From NCBI GenBank assembly GCA_035508275.1, contig DATJNI010000007.1, forward strand, positions 60,324 through 124,323: DNA of 64,000 nucleotides. The letters run 5' to 3'. The notes under the pieces are model-generated. The model had not been told where the DNA came from, searched no databases, and was given only the letters and a program-made list of their open reading frames with translations. Positions within the stretch are counted from its first letter, which is position 1. Each line of letters starts with the position of its first letter. The DNA comes from Candidatus Sulfotelmatobacter sp. GTDB lineage: Bacteria; Patescibacteriota; Saccharimonadia; Saccharimonadales; UBA4665. Shown here piece by piece: positions 4,105-17,159 of the stretch. Made by a program: the position numbers and the translations under genes.

Positions 4105-6951
4105 TCAGTTGACTGTGAATGATACCGCCGGCGTGGTTACGCTTTGACCTGAACTATCTTTAACTATAGCGCTAACGCTGTGAGTACCCTTCGCTCCGGA
4201 TGTCTTAAATTGCACTTCAAACGGCGAGGAAGTTACGGCTGAGCCATAGTCTGCGCCGTCTACTACATATTGGACTGAGGTTATACTGGCGCCGGTTGAA
4301 GGAGTGGCGTTAACTTGCAGCTTGGTGTCAGCGGTTAGAATTTCACCGATAGTGGGGTTTAGTATTGTGGCACTTAAGGGACTCGTAGCGTTTGATTTAT
4401 TACCACCAGAGTTACTTACTTTAATAGTAACTGGTGGTGAGGTAGCCATAGCACCAGTACCGTCCTGGACGACTGCTGTAATAGTGTACGACCCGTTTGC
4501 TACAGAGTTAGTATTCCAGGCATAGGTGTAAGGTGCCGAAGAGATTTGCTTGCCTAGTTTAGCGCCGTTTAGGTAGAATTGAACGTCAGCGACACTTGTT
4601 CTAGGGTCAGTTGTGGCGCTAGCTTGAATGTTTACAGTCCCTGAAACGGTTACATTATTAGCTGGGCTGTTTATCGTAGCGGTAGGCGGTGCCAGTGGCT
4701 GTGTGTTGTTATTACCGGTCTCGCTAATGTAGAGGAGTCTTGGAGAGTCGGTAACGGGAACTTCTATTACAATGTTGGTTGAGCTTCTGGAAATAACGTT
4801 GACGCTTGGTGTGGCGCCAGTTAGAGGATCGTAGAAAGTCATAGAGTTAATATTGTTACCATTAACTCCACCGATGGTTAAGCGGTAGGTTTCAGCCGGC
4901 AAGTCAAATTTGGTTTCGCCGGGAGCGCTAGAGTTGTATATCTTCTCTAGATCAGAGGTTTGAACATATATTGGTACTAAGAAACTGGAATTAGTTAACT
5001 GGTAAGGATAGAAGGAAAAGACGTTTCGGTTGTATAGGTCGGGGTACTGGGCAGTGCCATTGCCGCTGAACTGGATATTACCGGAGTAGTCGTCAATTTC
5101 GTTGAGGGCCAGGGATTGCGGTTTGGTAATGGTTTGGGCAGCCATGAAAGGCTTTAGGAAGTTATGGATGGTCTGGGTAATGAAGCCGCCCTGAGAGTCA
5201 CCTGGGTAAACATTGGGGTTAGAGTCAACTGCACTAATGAAACTGCTATCTACTAGATTAAGGCTGTATGGCCCCTGCTTTGAATCCTTGGCTGCGTAAA
5301 AGTCTATTTGCTTGGCACCCTTATTTACAAAGTCGGATAGGTATCGTATCTGAGCCTTGGCTTGTATATATTCACGGTCATTATTAGTGTAGTTATATTT
5401 GCCGTTATTCGGGTCGCCGCCGTTTCTAGGTGGAGTTAAACCGTAGTTATATTCGGTTATCCAAACTTGGGCGGTGTGGCCTTGAGGGTTGGCTGCATTC
5501 GAGCCGTGCAATGATCCACCAAGAGTCGTGGATATTGGAGACATGTCTCTAAGTAGTGACTGGTCGGTGAAGGCAGACAGAGACTGTTCTGGATAGTGAG
5601 CAACAAAGCTTGGCGTAAAGGTGTCTACGTTAACAGTCTTACCTCCAACAGTCTTGGTGGTATAGTCTCGCTGCATTAGGGCGTTCAGAGGATAAGACTG
5701 ATCATATTTTAAGTCAGCCGGATAAACCTTCTCGTTCTGGTATGGGTGCTTGCTTAGAGCTGTAATAGTGCTGGGAAGGGTTGAGCCACTGGGAAATGGT
5801 GACTGCGAAGCAAAACCATTGGTAATCTGGACACCGGTGAAACCATTAGCCGGGTTAGCTATAAAGTTACCTGTGTCAGCTAATATCTGAGCAGTGGTAC
5901 TACCGGTTAGGGTAGGGTTGGGTGGTGAAGAGTAGTAATTAGCGGCAGCTAAAAAGTTTGAGCCAAAGCTTAGCTCATTCCAAACTTCCAGGTCAAAGTT
6001 GTTATTACCAAGTGCGGCCTTAGCAGTACTAGCGACTCCGTTAACATAAGCCAGCCAGCCCTTGCTGTCAGTTGTGTAAACCGGGTTGGGCGTAACACCG
6101 TCAGCTAGAAAGGGTTTCTGGAAGGGGGCATAAGTAAGAATGGTCATTTTGCCCGAGAGATCGGCTGTGCTGTCTATTGGCTTGGACAGAGTAACTGTGT
6201 TGCCACTGACGGCAGTAAACAGGATTCCGGCCATGACTCCGTTATCTTCTATGCCAGTTTTTCCTGGCACTATCTGTTTGGCGGTCGAACTCGATACTGT
6301 GACCGTCGTGTCACCGACTTTCGGCGTAACTGTATACGAACCAGTGAAGCTAGAATTTGGTACTGGGTTAGTGTCTCCGGCGTAGAGAATAATTAAGGGT
6401 CGGATGCCGTTGGCTTTTAGGGCGTCAATTTTAGTTGTGAGATCGCCTGCAGCAGTTGGGTTAACCTGGGTTGGATTAGCATAACTCATAAAGCCGCCCC
6501 AGTTGGTTCCAAGTCGAGCGTGGGTAAAGCCAGTGTCTTTTAGTAGGTGGGCGGTGTCACTGGCTTCATTGGCGTTAACGTTGAAGTTAATACCAACAGC
6601 GTTTAGCATGTCCGTGGCAGGGACAGTGTCTAGGTAAGCGTTTTGGGGCTGATCGTAGAAGGATCTGTCGCTAGCAGTTAGATTAGTTAGGTATGCCGGG
6701 TCAGTATAGTCTGTGACAGTACCGGCAAACGGTGTCGCAGCATGTCCACCTAGAATTAAGTAGGCACCAATTACGGCAAATACCGCTACGAAAACTGTGG
6801 CGGTAATTTTTGAAAAGATAAAGTTGGGCATTTTATCGTTTAGGCTGCCCTTGCCTTCTCCGACTGTCGCTGAACTGGGGGGAACACTACTTACTGGATT
6901 TGATTCTTTGGGGGTAGTATCAGGGTTATCCTGAGAGTCATTAATGGCCAT
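4105..6951 (-). CDS. membrane-anchored extracellular protein: clan GH-A-like glycoside hydrolase core plus two C-terminal Ig-like (Big-type) domains
   Basis: N-terminal TM helix (FSKITATVFVAVFAVIGAYLILGG). Candidate acid/base and nucleophile motifs DLEVWNELSFG and QVWITEYNYG, as in (beta/alpha)8 clan A hydrolases. Two C-terminal repeats of the type VSGTVNIQA...VQFYLNGAKLG...APYTYAWNT...NGSYTITAVVQD. Confidence 0.6.
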   Translation of the reverse strand: MAINDSQDNPDTTPKESNPVSSVPPSSATVGEGKGSLNDKMPNFIFSKITATVFVAVFAVIGAYLILGGHAATPFAGTVTDYTDPAYLTNLTASDRSFYDQPQNAYLDTVPATDMLNAVGINFNVNANEASDTAHLLKDTGFTHARLGTNWGGFMSYANPTQVNPTAAGDLTTKIDALKANGIRPLIILYAGDTNPVPNSSFTGSYTVTPKVGDTTVTVSSSTAKQIVPGKTGIEDNGVMAGILFTAVSGNTVTLSKPIDSTADLSGKMTILTYAPFQKPFLADGVTPNPVYTTDSKGWLAYVNGVASTAKAALGNNNFDLEVWNELSFGSNFLAAANYYSSPPNPTLTGSTTAQILADTGNFIANPANGFTGVQITNGFASQSPFPSGSTLPSTITALSKHPYQNEKVYPADLKYDQSYPLNALMQRDYTTKTVGGKTVNVDTFTPSFVAHYPEQSLSAFTDQSLLRDMSPISTTLGGSLHGSNAANPQGHTAQVWITEYNYGLTPPRNGGDPNNGKYNYTNNDREYIQAKAQIRYLSDFVNKGAKQIDFYAAKDSKQGPYSLNLVDSSFISAVDSNPNVYPGDSQGGFITQTIHNFLKPFMAAQTITKPQSLALNEIDDYSGNIQFSGNGTAQYPDLYNRNVFSFYPYQLTNSSFLVPIYVQTSDLEKIYNSSAPGETKFDLPAETYRLTIGGVNGNNINSMTFYDPLTGATPSVNVISRSSTNIVIEVPVTDSPRLLYISETGNNNTQPLAPPTATINSPANNVTVSGTVNIQASATTDPRTSVADVQFYLNGAKLGKQISSAPYTYAWNTNSVANGSYTITAVVQDGTGAMATSPPVTIKVSNSGGNKSNATSPLSATILNPTIGEILTADTKLQVNATPSTGASITSVQYVVDGADYGSAVTSSPFEVQFKTSGAKGTHSVSAIVKDSSGQSVTTPAVSFTVN

Positions 6952-7049
6952 TTAGTTCTCTTTTATAGCAAAATTAATATATGTCATTTTTGTTTTACAA
7001 TACTCACTTATTAGGATGCTATAGATGGGCTTCGAAGTCAAGCTTATGC

Positions 7050-7619
7050 TTATTTGGTAAGTTCTTCGAGCAGTTCAGGGAAAGTATCGTCGGGCAAGTA
7101 TTTGTGTGTAAAATGCCCCTTGCCTTTAAACTCCCGGTAATTTACATCTTTTAGAGTCTCTCTTAGTTTCTTAACAGATGTTTGGATTTCCGGTGCGTCT
7201 TCTGCCGAGTTAAATATTACTAGCTCTTTTGTTCTTGAAGCAACGGTGGGGTCTAATTCAAATTTAAAAAACTGGTTTGGGTCTTCTTGCTCGACATCTA
7301 TCCAAGGAGCAACCAGAACCACTTTGCCTGTTCTTATTTCGGGGTGTTCGCTTAAGTATCTAACCCAGAAGCCGCCGCCACAGCTATGTCCAACGATTAA
7401 AGTTTCTGGGGTGATATCGTATCTTTCTACTTCCTTCACCCATCTATCCCACAGTGGTTCGTAAGCTAACGGAACTTCCGGAGTTGCGGCTGCAATGTCT
7501 CTATTGAGTAGCTGTTTCTGAAGCCATGGCAGCCAATGCGAATTGCTCATCGAGGGATACTTTTCTGAGTAGTATTCAGCTTTGCTTGGGCGGCCATGCA
7601 GAATAATGGCGTTTTTCAT
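7050..7619 (-). CDS. alpha/beta serine hydrolase, YdeN/RBBP9-like
   Basis: 189 aa. ILHG near the N-terminus, nucleophile elbow GHSCGG, and WLPWL motif typical of this small hydrolase family. Confidence 0.7.
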   Translation of the reverse strand: MKNAIILHGRPSKAEYYSEKYPSMSNSHWLPWLQKQLLNRDIAAATPEVPLAYEPLWDRWVKEVERYDITPETLIVGHSCGGGFWVRYLSEHPEIRTGKVVLVAPWIDVEQEDPNQFFKFELDPTVASRTKELVIFNSAEDAPEIQTSVKKLRETLKDVNYREFKGKGHFTHKYLPDDTFPELLEELTK

Positions 7620-7640
7620 AATATTTAGCTTATTTAATAA

Positions 7641-7871
7641 CTAGAATGCTTTTTTCTCTAGCTTTACTATTCTTTTCTCATGGTTTTTAAATTGTCTGTC
7701 AAAACTGTCATTCATCCTGTCAAGAGCATCAGCAATATACGAGGAAAGGTTATCTATCTTGGCATCTATCCTGTCCTCCAGGTTACGGAGGTCTAATCTA
7801 AGATCGGAGGTTTGCTCAGAAACTGCCAAGGCAATAAATCTCTTTAGTTCATCTACAAGTTTCCTGTCCAT
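7641..7871 (-). CDS. hypothetical coiled-coil protein (76 aa)
   Basis: Heptad-like charged sequence. Same strand as its neighbours. Confidence 0.4.
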   Translation of the reverse strand: MDRKLVDELKRFIALAVSEQTSDLRLDLRNLEDRIDAKIDNLSSYIADALDRMNDSFDRQFKNHEKRIVKLEKKAF

Positions 7872-7932
7872 GACTCCTAGTATACGCCCGTGAATATTAA
7901 ATTTTTATTAATTTTTAAGATTTCTTAGGTTA

Positions 7933-8316
7933 CTAGCAAACGGTGTTAGCGTTAATTATATTAGAACAATACTTGGTCTGTTGATTAACTGAACTGCCTT
8001 CGAGAGGGCTATTCTTTGAGCCTGGCAGGGAGATGCTTGGTCCGCCTGATTTTTTATTACTTTGATGAGAGTTTACGTATAGGCCAGCTATGAGACTTAT
8101 GAGTAATAAGATAACGATTATTATTAATGGCCATTTTGAGTGCTTAAGAGATTTGTCGGTTGCTAGACCACTCATTACCAGTAGGTTTTTTGCTTGCTCG
8201 TCAGTTACTTTTGGTGCACTTGGAATTGAGGAGTAAGGGCTCTGATTCTGGGCTGGACGTGGGTTTGGTTTAGGAGGAGTCTGAGGATTATTTAGCTTTG
8301 GATCTTGGTTTTCCAT
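7933..8316 (-). CDS. hypothetical single-pass membrane protein with Pro-rich N-terminus
   Basis: PQTPPKPNPRPAQNQ region followed by TM helix WPLIIIVILLLISLIAGLYV. Confidence 0.45.
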   Translation of the reverse strand: MENQDPKLNNPQTPPKPNPRPAQNQSPYSSIPSAPKVTDEQAKNLLVMSGLATDKSLKHSKWPLIIIVILLLISLIAGLYVNSHQSNKKSGGPSISLPGSKNSPLEGSSVNQQTKYCSNIINANTVC

Positions 8317-8353
8317 TCTACTTAAAATAATACCACTAAAGCGATAGGGATAA

Positions 8354-8428
8354 TGGTGACCTCACGGGGAATCGAACCCCGATTGCCAGGATGAAAACCT
8401 GGTGTCCTAGCCGTTAGACGATGAGGCC
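8354..8428 (-). tRNA. tRNA-Glu (anticodon UUC)
   Basis: Reverse complement GGCCTCATCGTCTAACGGCTAGGACACCAGGTTTTCATCCTGGCAATCGGGGTTCGATTCCCCGTGAGGTCACCA folds as a cloverleaf. Anticodon stem CCAGG/CCTGG, loop TTTTCAT, encoded CCA. Confidence 0.9.
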
Positions 8429-8466
8429 GTGAGTCCGTATTATATCAGATTGAGAGGTGTTATTAA

Positions 8467-8499
8467 TAATCCCCCTGGACACCAAAACCAGAGGGATTA
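8467..8499. terminator. imperfect 11-bp hairpin between the surface-protein gene and tRNA-Glu
   Basis: TAATCCCcCTGG / CCAGaGGGATTA with a 9-nt loop. A T-rich run follows on the plus strand only, so orientation and function are uncertain. Confidence 0.3.
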
Positions 8500-8617
8500 C
8501 CTTCGTTTAACTATTTTTATTTTCTGTTAGAGCGGTCAGTCTTTGCTCTTGTCGAACTGGGGCTAATGTTAGCATATTTTTGGTGTTTTGGCTAGTGCTT
8601 ATCCACAAGGGATAGGC

Positions 8618-9547
8618 TTATTGCTTGCTCAAGTGTCGGCTGATTACTCTTCGGTAAGCAATCATACCTAGAATCGATGCAGCGGCAAATAGTCCAATTA
8701 CGTCACCAGGGCCAGTGTTTACTAACTGAGTAACTGATGCTGGTGTGGTAGTCGTAGGAGTGGTAGTAGTAGGAGGAGTAACTGGAGGTGTTACCGGTGG
8801 CGTTACTGGAGGAGTTGTTTCGGGTGTAACTGTGACTTCGTAAACAACTACTATTCGGTAGTTCCAGCAGCCCCATTCAATGCCAGAGCTCATTGGACCA
8901 GGGCTACCAAGTGGAGTTGATCCGTTAACTACATTGTCTGAAAGGCCGTAGTAAGTAGTTTGGGCTAGATTGTTGTTGTAGTGGACTGAGTTTGGAACTA
9001 GAGTCAGCTTTACTGGCTTACCCGCACAATTAAGGGTAGTGCTGTCGGTAACTGTAGCAGCATTTGATGCACCGATTGTGCTAGTAAACTTGAAGCTGTT
9101 GCCAGTAGAGTTAATTGGAGCAGAGGTATTCAGGTAAGCGCCTTGGGCAATGGAAGAACCGCCGTTGGTGTTGTAGTAAGATTCAGCATCATTGTGGACG
9201 TAAGTCCAGATATCGAATTTTTCACCTGTTGTACAGCTAGTATTCATACTAAGTTGTAGAGGTGGATTGTCAGCGCCGAGAGGGTTACCATTGCTAGTGT
9301 TCTGTCGAATACGAACAAAGTTAGGTTCATCGCCTAGGGGATAAGAACCTTGGGTAGAAGAAAGTGTGCTAGTTATGCCACAGATGTTATTAAATACAGG
9401 GGTTGCAGAGGTAGTAAAGTTACCGCTAGGGTTGTACTGATAACACGCTAGGGCACTAGCATTACCGCTAATTCCAACCACTGTAGCTATTACAGAAGCT
9501 GCCATTAGTCCAAAAGTTGCGGTTAATATTCTCTTGTAGCTCTTCAT
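8618..9547 (-). CDS. secreted cell-surface protein with C-terminal LVNTGPGD sorting-type signal
   Basis: Signal peptide (AASVIATVVGISGNASA). PT-rich linker TPPVTPPVTPPVTPPTTTTPTTTTP. LVNTGPGD (coded at 8702-8725) followed by a hydrophobic helix and RRVISRH tail. Confidence 0.8.
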   Translation of the reverse strand: MKSYKRILTATFGLMAASVIATVVGISGNASALACYQYNPSGNFTTSATPVFNNICGITSTLSSTQGSYPLGDEPNFVRIRQNTSNGNPLGADNPPLQLSMNTSCTTGEKFDIWTYVHNDAESYYNTNGGSSIAQGAYLNTSAPINSTGNSFKFTSTIGASNAATVTDSTTLNCAGKPVKLTLVPNSVHYNNNLAQTTYYGLSDNVVNGSTPLGSPGPMSSGIEWGCWNYRIVVVYEVTVTPETTPPVTPPVTPPVTPPTTTTPTTTTPASVTQLVNTGPGDVIGLFAAASILGMIAYRRVISRHLSKQ

Positions 9548-9570
9548 ATTATTATCCTAGAATCCTTTCT

Positions 9571-10770
9571 TTAAGCTCCAGGTTGGTCTGGGTCTGATCC
9601 TTTAGTTACTGGGGGTGTTGGAGGAGGGGTAGGCGGTGTTGGAGGGGTAGGAGGTGTAGGCGGAGTGATTGTGGTTGGTGGAGTGGCCTTACCATGACCA
9701 GGAGTCTTTCCTGGGGCTGGGGTCGCCTCTTTTTGTGGTCCAGAATGTGGTCCAACATTATTACCGCTTAGCGGTCCAGGAAGTGATTCGTGAGTTGGTC
9801 CGCTTGTAATACTGCCGCCACCTGAGGATTGTTCCTCGTTACCACCAGAAGCGTTGGCTGAGCCATGACCCTCAGGTCGAAGTGCTGGCTTAGCTTTCTC
9901 AGGCTTTTTACCAGTGGATTTGTTGGTTAGACCAGCAATTTGCTGAGGTGTTAAACCGGCAATATATACTGTGCCGTTTTCGATACCCTTGCTGCTGTTA
10001 GTAGATATTAGGACTGAAGGATAGTCAGTTTGATTAGAGTCAGAAGACTGTACGGAAAACTCTACGCCAGCGTAAGTTTGACCAGCTTGGACTACAACTT
10101 TTTGGAATCTAATTCCAGTGATATTGTATTGGTCGTTTCTTACGGCAACAGCTTCAACAAGTACCGCACCTTTGTAGGCAAAACCTGGGTTGTAGCTTAC
10201 ATCGTTACTTAAGACACTTAGAGATTTTTGGCAATCTGCTTTAGCATTTGCTTCGTTTTGGCCAGCATCACTAGTGTTGTATCTAGCTAAAGTCTTATTA
10301 AATGAGTCTTCGTAGTCAAAGTTAGTAGATACAGCACCTTCTTGTGTTGCCGGGTTAACTGTTAGGGCCATAATTGCTGACAAGGAATAAGCGTCTGCAC
10401 CATCGCCAGCTAGTGGGCCTTGGTTTCCGAATAAACTCCAGAAGTAGTTTTTAGCGTCAACATCTGATCCGGCTGAGTAATTAGGGAAGAATGCATCCGG
10501 TGTATAGAGGCTCATGTCATTGGCTGATTCACCTAGCGACAAACTTCCACAATTCTCTTTTGCTTGATTTGGGCTAACGCTAGTAGCAATTTCTGATGCC
10601 ACTGGACGTCCCGATGTAGCTTGAGTGCCACAACCTTCTATAACAGCTCCTGCACCAAACATAGCTACGGCTGAGGCAGCTAGTACTGCGCCTCTACTTC
10701 TTAAGTTGGCAAAAATGCTGCTGTGCTCAACTGAATGTCGATCTTGTGCTGGAAAATCTTCTTGTCCCAT
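9571..10770 (-). CDS. secreted protein with Gly/Ser- and Pro-rich C-terminal tail (possible lipoprotein)
   Basis: N-terminal hydrophobic segment ending AVIEGC. C-terminal PPTPPTPPTPPTPPPTPP tail. No anchor motif. Confidence 0.65.
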   Translation of the reverse strand: MGQEDFPAQDRHSVEHSSIFANLRSRGAVLAASAVAMFGAGAVIEGCGTQATSGRPVASEIATSVSPNQAKENCGSLSLGESANDMSLYTPDAFFPNYSAGSDVDAKNYFWSLFGNQGPLAGDGADAYSLSAIMALTVNPATQEGAVSTNFDYEDSFNKTLARYNTSDAGQNEANAKADCQKSLSVLSNDVSYNPGFAYKGAVLVEAVAVRNDQYNITGIRFQKVVVQAGQTYAGVEFSVQSSDSNQTDYPSVLISTNSSKGIENGTVYIAGLTPQQIAGLTNKSTGKKPEKAKPALRPEGHGSANASGGNEEQSSGGGSITSGPTHESLPGPLSGNNVGPHSGPQKEATPAPGKTPGHGKATPPTTITPPTPPTPPTPPTPPPTPPVTKGSDPDQPGA

Positions 10771-10882
10771 TAAATAACTCCTTTAAGGGCTGTTAGTATG
10801 ACCAGGGTTATTTTGACCTCTAGATCTTTTATCTTAATATATCACTCTTTTCATATTTAGTCAACTATATTTTAGATTATGC

Positions 10883-11737
10883 TTATGTATTTTGCCAGTT
10901 CTCTGCCCTCTCTATTGCCTGGGCTATTGAGGCGTCTACTCTGGGCCAATTGACACCATCAGGTGATGATTTATCGAATACAGCCCGAGCAACCGCTATT
11001 TTGGCGGTTAACAGGGAGTCAACAACCCTTTGATCTTCTTTTATAAGTAGCCTGTTGGCCTCGCCACGTTGTCTATCATCGCTTAAGTCGACTTCCCCAA
11101 GGCCTTTGCCGGAACGTATAACTAGTCCTGCTTTAGGGAGTTCAAGATCCCAAGGAGCGTTTGTTTTGATGGCAATCATGGGCTGGTTAGATTTTAGCTT
11201 TTTAGGATCAAGCCTTAGAAAGCTACTAAGAACAATGGTTAGGCCGTCATGGCTTAGGCCCCTGATTAAATCTGCTTGTTCTTCTGGGTCATCAGAATGA
11301 GTTAGAACTTCAAAGTCCTGGTCTCTCGCAGCTGCTGATCCGACAGAGAAGAGTAGGGCTTCGTCCGTCACACCAGGCAGAGACTCTTCTAGAGCTCTGG
11401 CTATTGCGATGTTAAGCCCGTTTCTGGCGGCTCCCAAACCGAATCTTTCGTCTAGGGAAGTTGGTACGCGCTGTTCGGCAACTACTCTAATATCTAGCTG
11501 TCTGGGTGGATGAATAATTGCAACGTGGGGTTCGTCCATTACTATGCTGTCGTAGGAGCTATGGTCAATATTGCTTGGGTCATCTAACTCAGGATCAAAC
11601 GGACGATGGTAAAGAGGAAAGTCAGAAAAACCCACCGAACTTTTGGGATGATCGTGCTCACCCCATAAGATCGGTGAATTAGTGACAAGGTTAGCCAGGG
11701 CGTCTGTGGTAGCCGCTAGTTTAATCTCGCCAGACAT
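10883..11737 (-). CDS. hypothetical protein, possibly divergent DUF58-like partner of the MoxR/VWA pair
   Basis: Starts 1 nt after the upstream ATPase gene ends. The YHRPFDPELDDPSNIDHSS segment loosely resembles the DUF58 R-x-Y-x-x-G-D...IDW motif. The family call is weak. Confidence 0.6.
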   Translation of the reverse strand: MSGEIKLAATTDALANLVTNSPILWGEHDHPKSSVGFSDFPLYHRPFDPELDDPSNIDHSSYDSIVMDEPHVAIIHPPRQLDIRVVAEQRVPTSLDERFGLGAARNGLNIAIARALEESLPGVTDEALLFSVGSAAARDQDFEVLTHSDDPEEQADLIRGLSHDGLTIVLSSFLRLDPKKLKSNQPMIAIKTNAPWDLELPKAGLVIRSGKGLGEVDLSDDRQRGEANRLLIKEDQRVVDSLLTAKIAVARAVFDKSSPDGVNWPRVDASIAQAIERAENWQNT

Positions 11738-11738
11738 A

Positions 11739-12815
11739 TTATTTTCCTGCTTCGCTTATGGCAGTTTCTATGAATTCGTTAAGTTGTCCTTGGTGAAAAT
11801 CTTCTGCATCTATTTTGGGATGGACAAATATCCTAGCGGCAAAGACACCTGGCAAAGCTCGGACTACATCCTCTTTAGCTACCGCCATTTTGCCAGCATG
11901 AATTGCACACTGTGCCCTAGCTCCTAGGCTTAGCTGTTCATACATTCTATGGTCGCCTTCTCGAACGCCGAACTCTCTGGCAAGAACGTCCATAGTAGAG
12001 ATAGTCAGTTCCACTATATGGTCTCTAGCTTCGTCTGGTATAGCCACCTGTCCAATGTGCCTTCCAAACTCGAGAAGTTCTTTTGCAGAGACTACTGGAT
12101 CAACCTTTTTCCAAGCTTCTTTCTTGTCAGTACTTCTATTTAATAGCCTGGCTCTACGAGTAGATTTATCGCCAGTCCCATCTGTTAGACCCATTATGGT
12201 GCCAACAGCCATTCTAGATGCTATTTGAGGAGGAATTGTATGGGTTCCATCCCTTCTGTTTATGGTGTTGGCTGAGGCAACAACCCAATGAATACCTGGC
12301 ATATCTTGTATTTCACCACGTCTTTCTACCGTTCCATTGGCCATTAACGACATTGCCGATCTTAGGGCTGCAGGGTTGGCGGCAGTCATTTCTTCGAAGT
12401 GGATGCCGCGAGTTTTATTTGTAAATATGCCCGCAATTTCTTGAGTAATTTCTTCTTCTGTTCTTTCTATATCGCTTTTGGTAGTCTTTTTCTGAGTGTA
12501 TGTGTCGCCTTTGATTGCCCTTGCGCTAAGATCATGGTCGCCTGGGATAAAGGCTACTGTTTCGTTAGTATAGCCAACGCCTTCAATTGCCTGGAAGTAG
12601 GCTCTAGATAACAAGGTCTTACCCGTGGCTGCTCTACCGCCCAGACCAAAAGGGGTCTGTGTCATTAGGGAAACTATTGCAGCGTCGACAGCTGGATCTT
12701 CGTGAGATACGACACTGCCCAAAGCTTCTCGAATATTTTCTGCAGCCTTAACGAGATCTGCTGCAACAGCGTCTCTAGAGGCTGATACTTCTCTTAAGTG
12801 TGATGGTTGTTCCAT
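11739..12815 (-). CDS. divergent MoxR-like AAA+ ATPase
   Basis: Walker A GRAATGKT. IHFEEM at the Walker B position. ANPAALRSAMSLMANGTVERRG and VVASAN resemble the MoxR LLeamEe...v and ATqNP blocks. Confidence 0.7.
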   Translation of the reverse strand: MEQPSHLREVSASRDAVAADLVKAAENIREALGSVVSHEDPAVDAAIVSLMTQTPFGLGGRAATGKTLLSRAYFQAIEGVGYTNETVAFIPGDHDLSARAIKGDTYTQKKTTKSDIERTEEEITQEIAGIFTNKTRGIHFEEMTAANPAALRSAMSLMANGTVERRGEIQDMPGIHWVVASANTINRRDGTHTIPPQIASRMAVGTIMGLTDGTGDKSTRRARLLNRSTDKKEAWKKVDPVVSAKELLEFGRHIGQVAIPDEARDHIVELTISTMDVLAREFGVREGDHRMYEQLSLGARAQCAIHAGKMAVAKEDVVRALPGVFAARIFVHPKIDAEDFHQGQLNEFIETAISEAGK

Positions 12816-12817
12816 GA

Positions 12818-13774
12818 TTATCCTCTCATTCCTTTCCCTGTTGTGAACCTGCGTCTGTTGGCTAGGATCAAAGATCCTGTACCAAACAAAATGGCTGCAA
12901 GTCCTTTCATAATTAATGAAGTTTCACTTGATATACCCATCTCATCGGTGGTAGTTGGTTGGTTGACTCGCTCAGCAATTAGGTTCATGCCGCCAGTGGT
13001 ACGACTAAAGTACTGTCCACCAGTAGAGCTTGCAAGACCTTGGAAACTATCTACTAACTGTTTTGGGGTACCGCGCGGATCCAGGTTAACTACGCTGACT
13101 TTGGTTTTCTGCTGGTTGGCAGCTTGGGCCAAGCTAGCAGTATCTCCCAGGCTATCGCCATTAGTTATTACCAGTATCTCGCCCGCTGTATTTGTTGAGC
13201 TTTTGGCTTGCTTATCTAGTAAGTCTTGGGCGGTTGCGATACCACCGTTCATATCTGCAGCACCAAGCGGCTCACCGACAGCTGTATTTACAAACTTAGC
13301 AAACTCTCTTGCTGTAGTGATTTGCTGGTTGTCTGAGTGAACTCCGCTTAGGTTTTCATCTACTACGGTTGGGTTAGTCTTAGAGAAGTCGCTTATGATA
13401 GACACCTCTTGAGGTAGTACACTTTGAACATCTGCGGCACCATCAGCTACAATTTCTAGACCCTCGGGATTAGTGTGAGACGATTCTCCTGTGAATGAGT
13501 AGGCAAAGAGACTGCCGCTTACTGCGAAAGACAAGATAACGGCACCTTTAACTGAGTACCTGCCAAGGAAGGCTCTAGCCCTTTCATAAGCACTTCGCTC
13601 ATCTTGGTTTTCCTTTTCGTCTTCATTTTGTTCGTGAGACAGTGCACTAGCAAGTACTGGCAAGTGTTCTTCTTCTACCACTCTACTTTGCCTTTCAATG
13701 GCAAAACGATCAGCTACAGCGCCTACGGTGGCGCCAGCAGCAAAACCGACAGCGAGTGCAATCTCTGAATCCAT
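12818..13774 (-). CDS. membrane-anchored von Willebrand factor A (VWA)-like protein with degenerate MIDAS
   Basis: N-terminal hydrophobic helices. LEIVADGAADVQ at the DxSxS position. ILVITNGDS, VSVVNLDPRG and GGQYF blocks typical of VWA. C-terminal TM plus ANRRRF tail. Confidence 0.65.
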   Translation of the reverse strand: MDSEIALAVGFAAGATVGAVADRFAIERQSRVVEEEHLPVLASALSHEQNEDEKENQDERSAYERARAFLGRYSVKGAVILSFAVSGSLFAYSFTGESSHTNPEGLEIVADGAADVQSVLPQEVSIISDFSKTNPTVVDENLSGVHSDNQQITTAREFAKFVNTAVGEPLGAADMNGGIATAQDLLDKQAKSSTNTAGEILVITNGDSLGDTASLAQAANQQKTKVSVVNLDPRGTPKQLVDSFQGLASSTGGQYFSRTTGGMNLIAERVNQPTTTDEMGISSETSLIMKGLAAILFGTGSLILANRRRFTTGKGMRG

Positions 13775-13829
13775 ATACGATTATTTTACACTATTTTAGC
13801 TAAATAGTCAAAGGTTGTTTATAAGAAAC

Positions 13830-14786
13830 TTATTTGTCTCTTTTGGAGTTAGCTTCTATACGCTCTTTGGCGAATTTTCGTCTCAGTACCAACTGATAAA
13901 TAACTATTCCAGAGGCTGCGGCGCCAATGAAAACTAGGGCAACATCGCCTGGTCCGGTGTTAACTAGACTGGAAGTAGTTGAAGATGGGGTAACAGTTGC
14001 TTGGACAGCCGGAGTTGAGGCTGTTTGTTGGGGAGGGGCTTGGGTAGTGGTGTTCTGGACGACGGTAGTATTAGTTGAGCAATTGCCGCCGCTAGCATTA
14101 TTGGTATTGGACGAGTTGGTTGTGTTGCCGTTGCAGTTGCTTATGGTAGTGGCTGCTGGAGTGGTCGTCTTAGTTGGTACCGGTTTAGGAGGAACGGGCT
14201 TAGGTGGGACAGGTGGTGGAGAAATTGGTCTTGCAGATATTGGGTTGCCGCAGCTGGAGAGAATAGCGAAGTCAAAGCGACCGTTTATAGTTACAACGTA
14301 AGCGTAAAGAGCATTATTTAGGAAAGATATTGACGGAGGTCTAGTGTAGAAGGTGGTGCCGTCAAAGTTAACAGTGGAGCTGCCGCTTATATACTGTCTG
14401 CCGCCCGTTAAAGCACCTGTAGCTATTACTCCACCGGTCGAGTTTAGGACATCACCAGATTTAGTCACTTCGCCAGCTTGGACATGAGCCACGCTACTAT
14501 TCATAAGTTCAATATCTGAGTAATTTATACCGAAGTAGTTATATATATTATGGATACTGGCAGCCGAGTTAACTCCGTCGCCGTTATTGTACTTGCCTAT
14601 AAGGTTGTCTACGGAGCTGGCGCCACAGTAAAGGACTGCGTTAGCGTCACAGTTATATGGTCCACCTATACCAATATTTTGAGCATGTACTGAGTCCAGT
14701 TTAATTAGGAAAAGTGCCAACAGAATAGTCAGTGCTGCAGCGAACATCCAGTTGCGGTTTTTGAGGTTGTAGGTCAAACTCAACAC
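13830..14786 (-). CDS. secreted cell-surface protein with C-terminal LVNTGPGD sorting-type signal
   Basis: Signal peptide. Linker PPPVPPKPVPPKPVPTKTTTP. LVNTGPGD (coded at 13944-13967) followed by a TM helix and RRKFAKER tail. Confidence 0.8.
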   Translation of the reverse strand: MLSLTYNLKNRNWMFAAALTILLALFLIKLDSVHAQNIGIGGPYNCDANAVLYCGASSVDNLIGKYNNGDGVNSAASIHNIYNYFGINYSDIELMNSSVAHVQAGEVTKSGDVLNSTGGVIATGALTGGRQYISGSSTVNFDGTTFYTRPPSISFLNNALYAYVVTINGRFDFAILSSCGNPISARPISPPPVPPKPVPPKPVPTKTTTPAATTISNCNGNTTNSSNTNNASGGNCSTNTTVVQNTTTQAPPQQTASTPAVQATVTPSSTTSSLVNTGPGDVALVFIGAAASGIVIYQLVLRRKFAKERIEANSKRDK

Positions 14787-14870: not shown

Positions 14871-17159
14871 CTAGGAGTGAGCAGCGTGAAGTTCTTTAGC
14901 TGGAGCTGCTTTTTTGTCGCCCGGTTTTACGGCTAGCTTTTCTTTGGAGAAGTTAAAGCCAAAGGTACTGCCCTTGCCTTCTTGGCTCTCAAATATTAGT
15001 GATCCACCTTGGGCAACAACTACTTTTTTGGCCATATATAAGCCTAGTCCGGTGCCATCCGGTCTGACTTTTCTAGCATTGCCAGCCCGGTAAAACTTGT
15101 TGAAAAGATGATGTTTTTCACTGTTAGGTACCCCTATGCCATCATCTGTGACAGTTAGTTCAATGCTGGTGTCTTTGTTTTTTAGGTTGACGTTTATGTG
15201 ACCATTCTTGGGTGTGTAGTAGATGGCGTTGTCTACAAAGTTCATAACTACCTGACGTATTTTGGTTTCGTCCATCATAAGGTCTGGAAATTCTTTAGGT
15301 CTGTTATACGTTAGATGGACATTATGTGACATCGCAGTGTCTTCTAGCTGCTGCATTTCTTGTTCGACTAGTTGAGCTAAGTTCACCTTAGTGTTTTCAA
15401 TGGAGAATTTGCCGGTTTTTAGTCGCGAAACGTTTAGCATGTCGGCAATCAGGTAAACCATTTTTTGGGAGGAGAAGAAGGCCTGGCCTATCATATCCTT
15501 TTGGGTGTGGGTTACTTTGCCAGCGTCACCTTCAAGAATCATGGAGAGATAGCCTTTTATGCTTGTTAGGGGTGTTCTTAGTTGGTGAGAGGCCATGCTG
15601 ATGAAGTCGTCTTTAGTTTCATCTAGAACCTTAAGGCGTTCGTTAGCCTTACGCAGCTTGTAAGTAGCTTCGTTGACTTTTTGTTGAAGTGTCACATTAA
15701 AGGCCTGAATTTCCTCGAATCGTAATGCGTTTTGTATGGCGATTACTAACTCATTGGCTAGTATCTCTATGACTTTTATGTCCGTATTGTTATAGATGTT
15801 TCCGCTCTTTTTATACCCAAAAATCATATAGTTTTTATGAGCTGTGGCAGAATGCTCCTTCGATTGAAGTCTTATTGCTATCGCGACCCGATTATTACGC
15901 AGAGTCTTTTTTAGGTCCGTTTCACCCTCTTCTAGGTTGTCGTAAACAATCATGCTTTCATCCTGTTTGTCTAAAATTTTATATAGCGACTTAAAGTCAT
16001 CTGCTTTCAAATCCTTCGAGCCTGTTACCCTTATAGTGTCCGTGCCTTCGTCCCTAATAATAAAAGCTGCTCTTTCGCACTTGATGTAGTCCTCTATAAC
16101 CATGGCGGAGCGTCTGAGTAGAATACCAAGTTCTATATTGTCTATTATTGTTTTATTCAGTTCATCTAAAAAGGCTTGGGTATCGTAAGCGTCCCTATAG
16201 AAAATCTTCCTGGTAAAAACGTCGAAGTAGTGTTTTATTGCGGGGTAAAAAAGTGCTAGTACGATCGCTAAAGCTGTATAGATAATTCTGGCTTGAGAGT
16301 CGTTCAGGTTCTTAAAGGCGTAATTAGTAATACTTGAGGCAATAAGAGTGAATGCTCCAGCTAAAGTAGCGAGAGCAAGTAAGTAGGCTATGGATCTAGC
16401 AATGATTAATCTAATGTCAAACAGTCTATGGCGGACAATAGCGTATGCCACCATGCCAGACAAAATCAGGGTAAACGCAGGACCAAGTCTAGAACTTGAC
16501 CAGTTATTAATAACTAGGGGCAATAAAACATTTGAGATAACAGCGAGCACAGCATATAAAATGATGCCCCAGGAAACTATGGATACTTGTCGTTTCTGTG
16601 AAACTAGGTGAGTTTCTTTTCTCTTCTTAAATATAATGACAAGCAATAATGCCAAGGAGTATGCCACGTAGAAAACGAACAGCCAGTAGATAAACGAAGT
16701 AGTGACCGTTGAGCTGCTACCCGAAATAGTAACAGACTGTATAACCTCTGGGGTTAAACTTAAGGGTATGAGAACAATAGTCAGACTTGTGTGAAATAAA
16801 AGAAAAAATCTTCTTTTAAAGTGAGTTGGTGTAGGAAAGTTATTCACGAAATTTAACACACAGTAGATAGCAACAATCCCCGTTAGAATTGTTAGTCTAG
16901 TGTAAAAAAGCACATTCGTGTTCACATGATCGGACAGGTAGTTTGCTATAGACCAAGACACTAGTGCCAGGGACATGTACGCAAAGTTTCTGTTTATTGC
17001 TTGGGAAGGATTACGTACTACAATTAGCAAACCAAGGGTAGTAATGGCTATACTACAAATTATAAGAATCAGTAGATCTGGTAACACCTTTGATAGCCCA
17101 TCTATTTCTTGTTGAAAGCTTAACCCCTTTATAATAACAGTTACGCTTAATAAAGACAT
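14871..17159 (-). CDS. sensor histidine kinase with multi-TM N-terminal sensor domain
   Basis: About 7 hydrophobic helices in the first ~310 aa. H-box SHQLRTPLTSIKGY. N-box MNFVDNAIYYT. G-boxes DDGIGV and GTGLGLYMAKK. Confidence 0.9.
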   Translation of the reverse strand: MSLLSVTVIIKGLSFQQEIDGLSKVLPDLLILIICSIAITTLGLLIVVRNPSQAINRNFAYMSLALVSWSIANYLSDHVNTNVLFYTRLTILTGIVAIYCVLNFVNNFPTPTHFKRRFFLLFHTSLTIVLIPLSLTPEVIQSVTISGSSSTVTTSFIYWLFVFYVAYSLALLLVIIFKKRKETHLVSQKRQVSIVSWGIILYAVLAVISNVLLPLVINNWSSSRLGPAFTLILSGMVAYAIVRHRLFDIRLIIARSIAYLLALATLAGAFTLIASSITNYAFKNLNDSQARIIYTALAIVLALFYPAIKHYFDVFTRKIFYRDAYDTQAFLDELNKTIIDNIELGILLRRSAMVIEDYIKCERAAFIIRDEGTDTIRVTGSKDLKADDFKSLYKILDKQDESMIVYDNLEEGETDLKKTLRNNRVAIAIRLQSKEHSATAHKNYMIFGYKKSGNIYNNTDIKVIEILANELVIAIQNALRFEEIQAFNVTLQQKVNEATYKLRKANERLKVLDETKDDFISMASHQLRTPLTSIKGYLSMILEGDAGKVTHTQKDMIGQAFFSSQKMVYLIADMLNVSRLKTGKFSIENTKVNLAQLVEQEMQQLEDTAMSHNVHLTYNRPKEFPDLMMDETKIRQVVMNFVDNAIYYTPKNGHINVNLKNKDTSIELTVTDDGIGVPNSEKHHLFNKFYRAGNARKVRPDGTGLGLYMAKKVVVAQGGSLIFESQEGKGSTFGFNFSKEKLAVKPGDKKAAPAKELHAAHS

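What the first reader, a model, noticed from the sequence alone, without database searches (positions are those of the whole stretch)
8618..14786. Six-gene same-strand surface cluster with a divergent VWA / MoxR-like / DUF58-like core between two sorted surface proteins
The gene order on the minus strand runs as follows. First is an LVNTGPGD-anchored protein (13830-14786). Next are a TM-anchored VWA protein with a degenerate MIDAS (DGAAD instead of DxSxS), a MoxR-like ATPase (GRAATGKT; IHFEEM at Walker B) and a possible DUF58-like protein, with gaps of 2 and 1 nt between these three. They are followed by a Pro-rich secreted protein and a second LVNTGPGD-anchored protein. MoxR-VWA-DUF58 modules are known chaperone-like systems. 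All three members here are strongly diverged, the VWA protein is itself doubly membrane-anchored, and the module is embedded among exported adhesin-like proteins. This suggests a dedicated surface-protein maturation or attachment apparatus, possibly relevant to an epibiotic lifestyle.
Basis: partly seen in the sequence, partly recalled or inferred. Interest (0 to 1): 0.6.

Follow-up and report, generated by a model that had tools for sequence, protein, structure and literature searches.

The report
Diverged Bat-type MoxR surface cassette
A tiny epibiotic-type bacterium (Saccharimonadales) carries a fast-evolving copy of the known but poorly understood MoxR ATPase / DUF58 / membrane-VWA trio, fixed next to a stalk-like secreted protein and a wall-anchored surface protein, which names candidate partners for a module whose clients are unknown.

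Summary
The three core assignments hold once relatives are used.

- ATPase: a family profile matches the MoxR structure 2r44 at E=3.7e-30.
- VWA protein: its model matches VWA folds, and it has the three-helix, outward-facing layout of BatA/BB0173.
- 284-aa protein: it sits where a bona fide DUF58 sits in relatives and links to those DUF58s by profile comparison (E=1.4e-5).

The conserved unit has five genes: VWA-TM, MoxR, DUF58-like, Pro-rich stalk protein and sorted protein S2. The other sorted protein, S1, occurs in 193 of 310 family genomes and is only loosely linked.

The cassette is patchy: 26 of 310 family genomes carry this version, and it is absent from the sister species. It comes in at least three versions, two of which are mixed within genera. 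The four inner genes diverge beyond recognition between conserved flanks (HK 48%, S2 65% identity). The stalk protein keeps only a C-terminal K-[GP]-x-[DE] tail.

My verdict is a specialised paralogue of Bat/MRP-type MoxR-DUF58-BatA operons tied to dedicated surface proteins. Its function is untested, and I found no paper describing it.

The parts
12818..13774 (-). BatA-like membrane protein. It has hydrophobic helices at residues 3-21 (weak), 77-95 and 287-305 around a VWA domain predicted to face outwards. The MIDAS site is eroded in this genome (DGAAD at 13430-13444; relatives have D-x-S-G-x-T), and the strand reads ITNGD where canonical VWA has TDG.
   Evidence: Pfam gives VWA_3 at 19.9 bits, below the cut-off. 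The 15-sequence profile matches 4rck at E=1e-3 and the integrin alphaM I-domain at 2.5e-3. The AF2 model has pLDDT 66, rising to about 90 for residues 200-270. In Foldseek nearly all of the top 50 hits are VWA domains at probability about 1.0. The gene lies directly upstream of the ATPase in 21 of 24 genomes with this cassette version.
11739..12815 (-). Divergent cytoplasmic MoxR-class AAA+ ATPase. Motifs: Walker A GRAATGKT (12615-12638), Walker B GIHFEEM (12387-12407, Asp replaced by Glu), sensor-1 Asn183, Arg201 (ASR where MoxR has DRF) and sensor-2 Arg290.
   Evidence: The protein alone has no significant Pfam or PDB hit. The 3-sequence profile matches 2r44 at E=4.5e-13. The 60-sequence profile matches 2r44 at E=3.7e-30 and RavA at 2e-10. 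Of 60 family members, 58 hit AAA_5 and 55 hit AAA_3. There are 129 representative clusters among 1.84e9 proteins. K66, N183, R201 and R290 are invariant and E142 nearly so. No TM segment is present.
10883..11737 (-). 284-aa cytoplasmic protein, a highly diverged DUF58 derivative, starting 1 nt after the ATPase stop.
   Evidence: The protein has no Pfam, NCBIfam or PDB hit on its own. It occurs in 26 of 310 genomes, always immediately downstream of the ATPase. The same slot in G087 and G315 holds a DUF58 above the Pfam cut-off. hhalign against 10 cluster-type DUF58s gives probability 80%, E=1.4e-5 over 201 columns. The AF2 model has pLDDT 84 and pTM 0.78 with an alpha/beta fold, but no significant PDB fold match.
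9571..10770 (-). Exported 'stalk' protein. It has an N-terminal hydrophobic anchor or signal (residues 29-47, ending GC), a roughly 200-aa globular domain with two conserved Cys, a long Gly/Ser then Pro/Thr low-complexity stalk, and the conserved C-terminal tail KGSDPDQPGA (9574-9603).
   Evidence: Sequence and hydropathy are. It is syntenic in 22 of 24 genomes with this cassette version. It has no Pfam or PDB match. The tail motif K[GP]x0-5[DE] is present in 10 of 11 homologues across three cassette versions (K[GP] in 11 of 11), with shuffle P of 0.02-0.2 each.
8618..9547 (-). S2, a sortase-type substrate. It has a signal peptide, a roughly 200-aa Cys-containing domain of unknown fold, a Pro/Thr linker, LVNTGPGD (8702-8725), a hydrophobic helix and a basic tail.
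   Evidence: Sequence is. Strong homologues lie about 2 kb downstream of the DUF58-like gene in all three cassette versions. It has no Pfam or PDB match. It is one of only three LxNTGPG-signal ORFs in the genome. The genome encodes two sortases elsewhere.
13830..14786 (-). S1, a second sortase-type substrate (LVNTGPGD at 13944-13967) with a Cys-rich N-terminal domain. It is a generic Saccharimonadales surface domain, a neighbour and not a fixed member of the cassette.
   Evidence: The domain is in 193 of 310 genomes, often multi-copy and mostly away from the core. It lies upstream of the VWA gene here and in G022 and G087, downstream of S2 in G005, G096, G311, G312, G216 and G218, and is absent from G077 and G047. 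It is retained next to the HK in the sister species that lacks the cassette.
14871..17159 (-). Multi-TM histidine kinase. It is a conserved flank of the locus, not part of the replaceable cassette.
   Evidence: It lies upstream of the cluster in the window, G022, G005, G087 and G272. It is 48% identical between the window and G272. It is still present in G001, which lacks the cassette.
13783..13811 (-). Promoter-like site (10 of 12 matches) in the S1/VWA gap, a candidate start of the VWA-ATPase-DUF58-like unit.
   Evidence: Consensus scan only.
10836..10864 (-). Promoter-like site (10 of 12 matches, extended -10 TG) in the gap before the stalk-protein gene, a candidate start of the stalk-S2 unit.
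   Evidence: Consensus scan only.

Best explanation
The cluster is a specialised, fast-evolving paralogue of the Bat / MoxR-proper (MRP) type module, which consists of a MoxR AAA+ ATPase, a DUF58 protein and a BatA-like membrane VWA protein. Here the module is fixed in one cassette with its own exported stalk protein, and a sortase-anchored surface protein (S2) follows it.

Shown:
- The ATPase is MoxR-class and keeps its catalytic residues.
- The 284-aa protein descends from DUF58.
- The VWA protein has a VWA fold between membrane helices.
- The five genes are syntenic across genera.
- The four inner genes diverge or are swapped as one unit.

Predicted from sequence: the ATPase and the DUF58-like protein are cytoplasmic. 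The VWA domain, stalk protein and S2 are outside the membrane.

Inferred mechanism: the cytoplasmic MoxR hexamer, with the DUF58-like adaptor, acts on the cytoplasmic N-terminal segment and helices of the BatA-like protein. In this way it sets the state of, or assembles, an external complex. That complex would consist of the VWA ectodomain, the membrane-tethered stalk protein and the wall-anchored S2 protein, forming a surface structure for contact with the environment or a host cell. The joint hyper-divergence of the four inner genes suggests that they form one co-adapted complex with exposed parts under diversifying selection.
For: Identity of the parts:
- The ATPase profile matches MoxR structure 2r44 at E=4.5e-13 and 3.7e-30, and members hit AAA_3/AAA_5.
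- The VWA model hits almost only VWA domains, and the profile hits BatA-like 4rck and integrin I-domains.
- The DUF58 link rests on position and on hhalign at E=1.4e-5. The third version links at E=2.7e-6.

Topology: hydropathy and basic flanks match Borrelia BB0173, whose three helices and periplasm-facing VWA were shown experimentally (PMC5700661).

Linkage:
- The DUF58-like gene is always next to the ATPase (26 of 26 genomes).
- The VWA gene was detected in 21 of 24 genomes and the stalk gene in 22 of 24.
- S2 lies about 2 kb downstream in all three versions.

Paralogue status: G005 has a textbook Bat operon as well as this cassette.

Cassette behaviour:
- Window versus G272: HK 48% and S2 65% identical, while the ATPase and stalk protein are unrecognisable.
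- Type-specific profiles fail across versions.
- Two of the versions are mixed within genera g3, g76, g92, g95 and g43.
- The sister species lacks the cassette.

Precedent for an envelope or export role of MRP operons: MoxR1 and RipA export in mycobacteria, and the PFNA cluster of bifidobacteria (PMC12067865).
Against: - There is no direct evidence of any interaction or of co-expression.
- Promoter-like sites suggest that S1, the trio and the stalk-S2 pair may be separate transcripts.
- In this genome the MIDAS site is eroded (DGAAD), the Walker B Asp is Glu, and the Arg of the family's DExNR motif is lost. This copy may therefore work differently or weakly.
- S2 subtypes do not follow core versions. 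The window's S2 is closest to those of G272 (third version), G240 (same version) and G087 (DUF58 version). This argues against a tight, specific S2-core fit.
- The DUF58-like model has no significant fold match.
- A cytoplasmic ATPase acting on an external domain across the membrane has no demonstrated mechanism in any Bat system.
- The locus is a variable surface-gene site anyway, so some of the adjacency could be positional.
Confidence: 0.6

Rival explanations
1. This is an ordinary envelope-stress or 'aerotolerance' Bat-type module whose neighbours are coincidental. The trio would do whatever Bat operons do generally (stress tolerance, envelope homeostasis). It would simply sit in a chromosomal hot spot where surface-protein genes accumulate.
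For: - One version of the cassette has a near-canonical MoxR (AAA_3, E=2e-31) and a DUF58 above the cut-off.
- Bat operons are widespread and linked to stress phenotypes (PMC11834572; PMC5700661).
- The site downstream of HK-S1 holds other surface genes in the sister species.
- S1 is clearly not specific to the cassette.
- S2 subtypes are not congruent with core versions.
Against: - S2 and a stalk-type protein follow the trio in every examined genome of all three versions, across many genera.
- G005 keeps a separate complete Bat operon with two VWA genes and a TPR gene, so this cassette is an extra, specialised copy.
- A housekeeping module would not be expected in only about 8-15% of genomes, nor to be missing from the sister species.
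Confidence: 0.2
2. This is a MoxR-vWA sensing or conflict system. Exposed, fast-evolving proteins (the VWA ectodomain, the stalk protein and S2) would detect a phage, a host or a competitor. The signal would pass through MoxR-vWA, possibly to the adjacent histidine kinase. It would resemble the MoxR-vWA ternary systems of Kaur et al. 2020 and the Esr pathway of oral Actinobacteria.
For: - The distribution is patchy, alleles are hyper-divergent and mixed within genera, and the cassette is replaced between conserved flanks.
- 25 of 60 ATPase relatives touch the bpMoxR model.
- An HK is adjacent in every locus examined.
- MoxR-vWA sensing with surface filament proteins has been reported in the hosts of Saccharibacteria (PMC13622651).
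- A Bat operon is under two-component control in Riemerella (PMC11834572).
Against: - The locus has no effector, kinase/phosphatase pair, FHA or beta-propeller protein.
- PADLOC gives no hit.
- The bpMoxR matches of the six database relatives and two locus homologues scanned one by one are all below the cut-off and weaker than their AAA_3/AAA_5 matches.
- The DUF58 partner marks the MRP/Bat type, not the ternary type.
- The HK stays in place when the cassette is absent, so it belongs to the flank.
Confidence: 0.12
3. This is a decaying relic in this genome. The cassette would be losing function here, and its divergence would reflect relaxed selection.
For: - The window's copy has lost the MIDAS Ser residues and the DExNR Arg, and has Glu for the Walker B Asp.
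- The ATPase in G082 is split into two pieces.
- The cassette is absent from many relatives.
Against: - All six ORFs are intact and full length, with tight 1-2 nt spacing.
- K66, E142, N183, R201 and R290 are retained.
- The DUF58-like protein folds confidently (pLDDT 84).
- Gene order and architecture are kept across three versions in dozens of genomes, which requires selection.
Confidence: 0.06

Closest known systems
Bat-type / MoxR-proper (MRP) operons: MoxR, DUF58 and BatA/BatB membrane VWA proteins (Bacteroides fragilis BatI operon, Borrelia bb0170-bb0176, Riemerella bat operon)
   Same: The trio is the same: a MoxR-class ATPase followed directly by DUF58, plus a membrane VWA protein with two N-terminal helices and one C-terminal helix and an outward-facing domain, as in BB0173 (PMC5700661). 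A canonical operon of this kind exists in the related genome G005.
   Different: - The gene order is VWA-MoxR-DUF58 instead of MoxR-DUF58-...-BatA-BatB.
- There is one VWA gene instead of two, and no TPR/BatC/BatD genes.
- All three proteins fall below the family cut-offs, and the MIDAS site is non-canonical.
- The trio is fixed to a Pro/Thr stalk protein and a sortase substrate.
- It is patchy, hyper-divergent and replaceable as a cassette.
Mycobacterial moxR1-Rv1480(DUF58)-Rv1481(membrane vWA) operon next to ripAB
   Same: It is an MRP-type trio in a monoderm-like Gram-positive lineage, beside genes for exported cell-envelope proteins. MoxR1 is reported to assist export of RipA (PMC12067865, citing Bhuwan et al. 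2016).
   Different: The neighbour there is a Tat-exported peptidoglycan hydrolase, not a stalk protein plus a sorted protein. The mycobacterial proteins are canonical family members, and no cassette-like diversification is described.
Bifidobacterial PFNA cluster (Ser/Thr kinase Pkb2, FN3 surface protein, MoxR-type AAA ATPase, DUF58, transglutaminase)
   Same: A MoxR-DUF58 pair is tied to a species-specific surface protein and a sensor kinase gene, and is proposed to mediate interaction with a host (PMC12067865).
   Different: PFNA has a transglutaminase membrane protein instead of a BatA-like VWA, a Ser/Thr kinase instead of a histidine kinase, and an FN3 protein instead of the stalk and S2 proteins.
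MoxR-vWA ternary conflict systems (Kaur, Burroughs, Iyer and Aravind 2020) and the Esr pathway of oral Actinobacteria
   Same: These also combine a MoxR plus vWA core with variable, exposed partner proteins, and they evolve fast and are patchily distributed (PMC13622651).
   Different: Here there is no beta-propeller sensor, no VMAP-type vWA protein with effector domains, and no kinase/phosphatase/FHA set. A DUF58 partner is present, and the bpMoxR matches of the eight relatives scanned one by one are all sub-threshold.
Sortase-assembled pilus loci of Gram-positive bacteria (tip pilin with VWA domain, backbone pilin, class C sortase)
   Same: A VWA-domain protein and LPXTG-type proteins lie in one locus. 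A conserved Lys in a partner protein could in principle serve as a sortase nucleophile.
   Different: The VWA protein has no sorting signal and is an integral membrane protein. The locus has no sortase; the two sortase genes are on other contigs. No pilin motif or E-box was recognised, and pilus loci have no ATPase or DUF58.

Membership tests
MoxR-class AAA+ ATPase (Pfam AAA_3 / MRP subfamily) | Significant match of the protein itself to the AAA_3 (PF07726) model | tested here: not met
   The window's protein has no AAA_3 hit; AAA_lid_2 scores only 13 bits. NCBIfam gives nothing.
MoxR-class AAA+ ATPase (Pfam AAA_3 / MRP subfamily) | Full-length homology to a MoxR structure or family through profiles of its relatives | tested here: met
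   Profiles match 2r44 at E=4.5e-13 (3 sequences) and 3.7e-30 (60 sequences) over about 310 residues, and match RavA at 2e-10. 55 of 60 relatives hit AAA_3 and 58 of 60 hit AAA_5.
MoxR-class AAA+ ATPase (Pfam AAA_3 / MRP subfamily) | Walker A Lys, Walker B acidic pair, sensor-1 Asn, Arg finger and sensor-2 Arg present | tested here: met
   K66, E141-E142 (Glu in place of Asp), N183, R201 and R290 are present. The Arg of DExNR is lost in this copy.
MoxR-class AAA+ ATPase (Pfam AAA_3 / MRP subfamily) | MRP-type neighbourhood: DUF58 gene directly downstream and a VWA gene in the operon | tested here: met
   A canonical version of the same locus is found in G087.
MoxR-class AAA+ ATPase (Pfam AAA_3 / MRP subfamily) | ATP hydrolysis and hexamer formation | not testable with these tools
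   This needs purified protein.
DUF58 (PF01882) | Match to the PF01882 model above the cut-off | tested here: not met
   The window's protein has no hit. Across 20 genomes the only touch on a 284-aa-type protein is E=0.64 in G111.
DUF58 (PF01882) | Profile-profile homology to bona fide DUF58 proteins | tested here: met
   Against housekeeping-type DUF58s the result is not significant (E=0.097). Against 10 DUF58s of the same locus type, whose two tested members (G087, G315) pass the Pfam cut-off, probability is 80% and E=1.4e-5 over 201 columns, including the signature-motif region and the VVSDF strand.
DUF58 (PF01882) | Position immediately after the moxR gene | tested here: met
   26 of 26 genomes, with a 1-nt gap in the window.
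DUF58 (PF01882) | VWA-like alpha/beta fold | tested here: inconclusive
   The confident model (pLDDT 84) has alternating beta-alpha elements, but Foldseek finds no significant PDB match (best E=0.026, TM 0.33 or less). A canonical DUF58 touches VWA_2 at 1.9e-5. I know of no solved DUF58 structure (my own knowledge).
VWA domain / BatA-like membrane VWA protein | Match to a Pfam VWA model above the cut-off | tested here: not met
   VWA_3 scores 19.9 bits against 27 and VWA scores 15.7 against 23.8. Relatives are likewise sub-threshold.
VWA domain / BatA-like membrane VWA protein | VWA (Rossmann-like beta-alpha-beta) fold | tested here: met
   In Foldseek, nearly all of the top 50 hits to the AF2 model are VWA domains at probability about 1.0, about 190 columns and TMt up to 0.65. 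The profile hits 4rck and the integrin alphaM I-domain. Model confidence is only moderate (pLDDT 66).
VWA domain / BatA-like membrane VWA protein | Intact MIDAS (DxSxS ... T ... D) | tested here: not met
   The window has D-G-A-A-D and ITNGD. The family consensus is D-x-S-G-x-T and TNGN.
VWA domain / BatA-like membrane VWA protein | Two N-terminal helices and one C-terminal helix with the VWA domain on the outer face | tested here: met
   Hydrophobic segments lie at 3-21, 77-95 and 287-305, with basic flanks RARAFLGR and NRRRF. This is a sequence-based prediction only. It matches BB0173 (7-25, 57-77, 310-328), which has a periplasmic VWA.
Sortase substrates (LPXTG-type sorting signal) | L-x-x-T-G motif, then a hydrophobic helix and a basic tail at the C-terminus, plus an N-terminal signal peptide | tested here: met
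   S1 and S2 both have these features. Relatives keep L-[VP]-x-T-G-[PA]-G.
Sortase substrates (LPXTG-type sorting signal) | A sortase encoded in the genome | tested here: met
   Two PF04203 matches above the cut-off lie on contigs C6 and C16.
Sortase substrates (LPXTG-type sorting signal) | Actual cleavage and covalent anchoring | not testable with these tools
   This needs biochemistry.
MoxR-vWA ternary conflict systems | bpMoxR-type ATPase plus a VMAP-type vWA protein plus a beta-propeller or other sensor and effector domains | tested here: not met
   The bpMoxR matches of the eight relatives scanned one by one are all sub-threshold. No propeller, effector, kinase or FHA domains were found. 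PADLOC gives nothing.

The most novel reading that the evidence does not exclude
The stalk protein and S2 would form one two-part surface appendage. A housekeeping sortase would join the Thr of S2's LVNTG signal to the conserved Lys at the tip of the membrane-tethered Pro/Thr stalk (the K-[GP]-x-[DE]-P tail), and not to the cell wall. Alternatively, the acidic residue of that tail would be the ligand of the outward-facing VWA site. The cytoplasmic MoxR/DUF58 pair would gate this assembly from inside through the BatA-like protein. That would give Bat-type modules their first defined client and would reveal a sortase-built, ATPase-controlled contact organelle in episymbiotic bacteria.
Probability: 0.12. 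Interest if true: 0.8.

Novelty: new variant of a known kind. Interest (0 to 1): 0.5.

Why it matters
MoxR-DUF58-VWA (Bat/MRP) operons are among the most widespread bacterial gene trios without a known client or mechanism. In this lineage the trio is welded to two dedicated exported proteins, which are concrete candidate partners. The joint hyper-divergence of the four inner genes marks out which proteins probably work as one complex.

Saccharibacteria live attached to other bacteria with very small genomes, and this genome has only three detectable sortase substrates. A variable, patchy surface cassette is therefore a reasonable candidate for host contact or host specificity. The two versions found mixed within single genera offer natural allele swaps for testing.

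Limits: the function is untested. The kind of system is known. The same cluster has already been noted in other genomes of this scan.

Tried and rejected
- Single-sequence searches were uninformative. These were Pfam, NCBIfam, PADLOC and PHROGs on all six proteins and PDB on the ATPase. The word-indexed protein search found only the protein itself, or one relative.
- Pattern-based locus retrieval failed with the 60-sequence alignment and returned only two loci with three sequences.
- hhalign of the 284-aa family against housekeeping-type DUF58 was not significant. It became significant only with DUF58s from the same locus type.
- Foldseek of the confident 284-aa model gave no significant PDB match, so the fold could not confirm DUF58 or VWA-like membership.
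- The stalk proteins of different cassette versions show no detectable sequence homology. Only the architecture and the tail motif are shared.
- The S1, S2 and stalk domains have no PDB or Pfam relatives.
- I considered a sortase-pilus locus and rejected it: the locus has no sortase, the VWA protein has no sorting signal, and no pilin motifs are present.
- I considered a mobile-element island next to the tRNA at 8357-8428. Nothing in the cassette supports it, since no integrase was seen among the cassette genes, and the flanks are conserved chromosomal genes. The sister species does carry a VirD4-like gene at the site.
- Loci from other genomes could not be read in the Python box, so synteny was established from the genome search coordinates.

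Full report
**1. Observation**

The six minus-strand ORFs exist at the stated coordinates. They are separated by 55, 2, 1, 112 and 23 nt.

The window is part of a 713-kb genome that is about 96% complete. Its nearest named relatives are Candidatus Saccharimonadales MAGs.

**2. Identity of the core proteins**

Taken alone, the proteins are almost invisible to profile libraries. The VWA protein scores VWA_3 at 19.9 bits against a cut-off of 27. The ATPase scores AAA_lid_2 at 13 bits. The other four proteins have no hit, and NCBIfam and PADLOC find nothing. All further progress came from relatives.

*ATPase.* An exhaustive HMMER search found 129 representative clusters among 1.84 billion proteins.
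- A 3-sequence profile matches the MoxR-family structure 2r44 over its full length at E=4.5e-13.
- A 60-sequence profile matches 2r44 at E=3.7e-30 and RavA at 2e-10.
- 55 of 60 relatives hit AAA_3 and 58 of 60 hit AAA_5.
- The Walker A Lys66, sensor-1 Asn183, Arg201 and Arg290 are invariant in the family, and Glu142 is nearly so.
- This copy has Glu for the Walker B Asp and has lost the Arg of DExNR.
- It has no membrane segment.

I conclude that it is a divergent but probably active MoxR-class ATPase.

*VWA protein.* A 15-sequence profile has only VWA domains among its best PDB matches: the BatA-like 4rck at E=1e-3 and the integrin alphaM I-domain at 2.5e-3 over the whole domain.

The AlphaFold2 model is of moderate confidence (pLDDT 66, about 90 for residues 200-270). 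Almost all of its top 50 Foldseek hits are VWA domains at probability about 1.0. They include TFIIH p44/p34, anthrax-toxin-receptor/CMG2, integrin I-domains, TRAP, vWF A1/A3 and alpha2delta.

The family's metal-site motif is D-x-S-G-x-T with TNGN in place of TDG. The window's copy is further eroded to D-G-A-A-D.

Hydrophobic segments lie at 3-21 (weak), 77-95 and 287-305. The basic residues RARAFLGR come before the second segment and NRRRF after the third, which places the VWA domain outside. Borrelia BB0173, a BatA-like protein of a MoxR-DUF58-Bat operon, has exactly this layout: helices at 7-25, 57-77 and 310-328, with the VWA domain facing the periplasm (PMC5700661). The double anchoring is therefore the family norm and not a novelty.

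*284-aa protein.* It has no match in Pfam, NCBIfam or the PDB, even as a 17-sequence profile. It folds confidently (pLDDT 84, pTM 0.78), but the model has no significant PDB neighbour.

Its homologues occur in 26 of 310 family genomes, always immediately downstream of the ATPase.

The decisive evidence is comparative. In G087 and G315 the same locus has the order HK, S1, VWA-TM, MoxR, X, stalk protein, S2. There MoxR is canonical (AAA_3, E=2e-31), and X is a DUF58 above the Pfam cut-off at 68.6 and 57.1 bits. Profile comparisons gave these results:
- The 284-aa family against housekeeping DUF58s is not significant (E=0.097).
- Against two locus-type DUF58s the result is E=1.1e-3.
- Against ten locus-type DUF58s the probability is 80% and E=1.4e-5 over 201 columns. 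The aligned region spans the DUF58 signature motif and the VVSDF/VISDF strand.

I accept it as a highly diverged DUF58 derivative, on transitive homology plus positional orthology. It is not a member by the Pfam threshold.

**3. What is conserved together**

Coordinates from five family-wide or targeted genome searches show the contiguous order VWA-TM, ATPase, DUF58-like, stalk protein, S2 in 17 or more genomes of many genera. G111 is an example, with the genes starting at 1767, 2723, 3763, 5012 and 6215. The VWA gene was detected in 21 of 24 genomes with this cassette version and the stalk gene in 22 of 24.

S1 behaves differently. Its domain occurs in 193 of 310 genomes and is often multi-copy.
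- It lies upstream of the cassette here and in G022 and G087.
- It lies downstream of S2 in G005, G096, G311, G312, G216 and G218.
- It is on another contig in G240 and G187.
- It is absent from G077 and G047.

The histidine kinase lies upstream in every locus read. It stays in place, together with S1, in the sister species G001, which has no cassette. There a VirD4/TraG-like gene and a different small sorted protein occupy the site. The unit is thus five genes, and HK and S1 belong to the flank.

**4. A replaceable, hyper-divergent cassette**

At least three versions exist.
- The window's version, in 26 genomes.
- A version with a recognisable MoxR and DUF58, in 11 or more genomes.
- A third version in G272. 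Its 328-aa protein links to locus-type DUF58 at E=2.7e-6. Its ATPase has an eroded Walker A.

The first two versions occur within the same genera: g3, g76, g92, g95 and g43. Profiles of one version do not detect the VWA, DUF58 or stalk proteins of another.

Between the window and G272 the flanks are well conserved (HK 48% and S2 65% identical). The inner genes compared are unrecognisable: ATPase E=0.015 and stalk protein E=29. Even within one version the window's core proteins are only 19-33% identical to their homologues, while S2 reaches 62-70%.

S2 subtypes do not follow core versions, which indicates modular exchange.

G005 carries a textbook Bat operon as well as this cassette: MoxR at 8e-61, DUF58 at 1e-34, two VWA genes and a TPR gene. 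The cassette is therefore a specialised paralogue. The window's genome has only the cassette.

Across the class, the 284-aa marker was found in 7 of 401 genomes, all in the same order.

**5. The exported proteins**

The stalk protein has four parts:
- an N-terminal anchor or signal, which is lipobox-like in some relatives;
- a globular domain with two conserved Cys;
- a Gly/Ser then Pro/Thr stalk;
- a short tail.

The tail is the only feature that survives across all versions. K-[GP] occurs directly after the stalk in 11 of 11 sequences, and an acidic residue follows within five positions in 10 of 11. Shuffling each protein's own tail gives P of 0.02-0.2 per sequence. Taking one sequence per version gives a joint P of about 3e-4.

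S2 and S1 have signal peptides and L-[VP]-x-T-G-[PA]-G sorting signals. Only three such ORFs exist in this genome. Two sortase genes lie on other contigs. None of the three exported domains has a Pfam or PDB relative.

**6. Mechanism**

Shown: the family identities, the synteny and the cassette-wise divergence.

Predicted: the ATPase and the DUF58-like protein are cytoplasmic, and the VWA domain, stalk protein and S2 are external.

Inferred: the MoxR/DUF58 pair acts through the cytoplasmic parts of the BatA-like protein on an external complex that includes the stalk protein and S2. The four inner proteins co-evolve as one complex whose exposed parts are under diversifying pressure.

Precedents for an envelope or export role are the MoxR1 and RipA link in mycobacteria and the bifidobacterial PFNA cluster (PMC12067865).

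Promoter-like sites suggest separate transcripts for the trio and for the stalk-S2 pair. Expression data could not be obtained.

**7. Novelty**

Papers with the terms Saccharibacteria plus MoxR, or sortase plus von Willebrand, do not describe this cluster. The MoxR-vWA system in PMC13622651 belongs to the actinobacterial host.

Earlier AI notes of this scan describe the same cluster in three other Saccharibacteria genomes. They agree with this reading but are not independent evidence. I tested the tail-Lys idea from those notes here.

The kind of system (Bat/MRP) is known. Three things are new here:
- the fixed link to a stalk protein and a sortase substrate;
- the three-version cassette behaviour between conserved flanks;
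- the transitive DUF58 assignment.

I rate it a new variant of a known kind, with interest 0.5.

Noticed in passing
L160 (G001:C9:16000-34000) 6807-9344 minus strand: In the sister species, the site that holds the cassette in the window contains an 845-aa VirD4/TraG-like coupling-protein ATPase (GQTGVGKSG ... YVDEFQHF). It also holds a 224-aa sorted protein whose C-terminal sorting region closely resembles that of S2 (QLVNTGAGSVIGIFAA...GRKLSRQ). This may be a conjugative or type-IV-secretion-related insertion at a variable surface-gene site.
   Followed up: partly
window 57848-57963 minus strand: A LOOT RNA (Rfam RF03000) match at 72 bits, well above the gathering score of 46.4.
   Followed up: no
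window 8357-8428 minus strand: A tRNA gene lies 189 nt downstream of S2. No integrase or repeat was looked for, and the flanking genes look chromosomal.
   Followed up: no
G210:C28:14260-16493 (L045): About 2.2 kb of extra sequence separates the DUF58-like gene from the stalk-protein gene in this relative, where other genomes have 0.1-0.4 kb.
   Followed up: no
G082:C16:4853-5946 (L021): The cassette ATPase matches in two separate pieces (4853-5257 and 5362-5946). This may be a frameshifted or broken copy, or an assembly error.
   Followed up: no
window 8618-9547, L161 5283-6494, L054 11349-12536: S2 comes in two clear sequence subtypes, with N-termini 'YQYNPSGNFTTS...' and 'IPYTGPTT...'. They are distributed independently of the cassette version. 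Many relatives also carry one or two PKD domains between the S2 domain and the sorting signal, which the window's copy lacks.
   Followed up: partly
G000:C7:65-457 (outside the window): The third sortase-type substrate of the genome (LPNTGPGAG...) is cut off by the contig start, so its full size and domain content are unknown.
   Followed up: no
window 7933-8316 minus strand: A small Pro/Gln-rich protein with a single TM helix (127 aa) lies between the tRNA and the next genes. A similar small protein follows S2 in G087 (L054 12823-13410).
   Followed up: no
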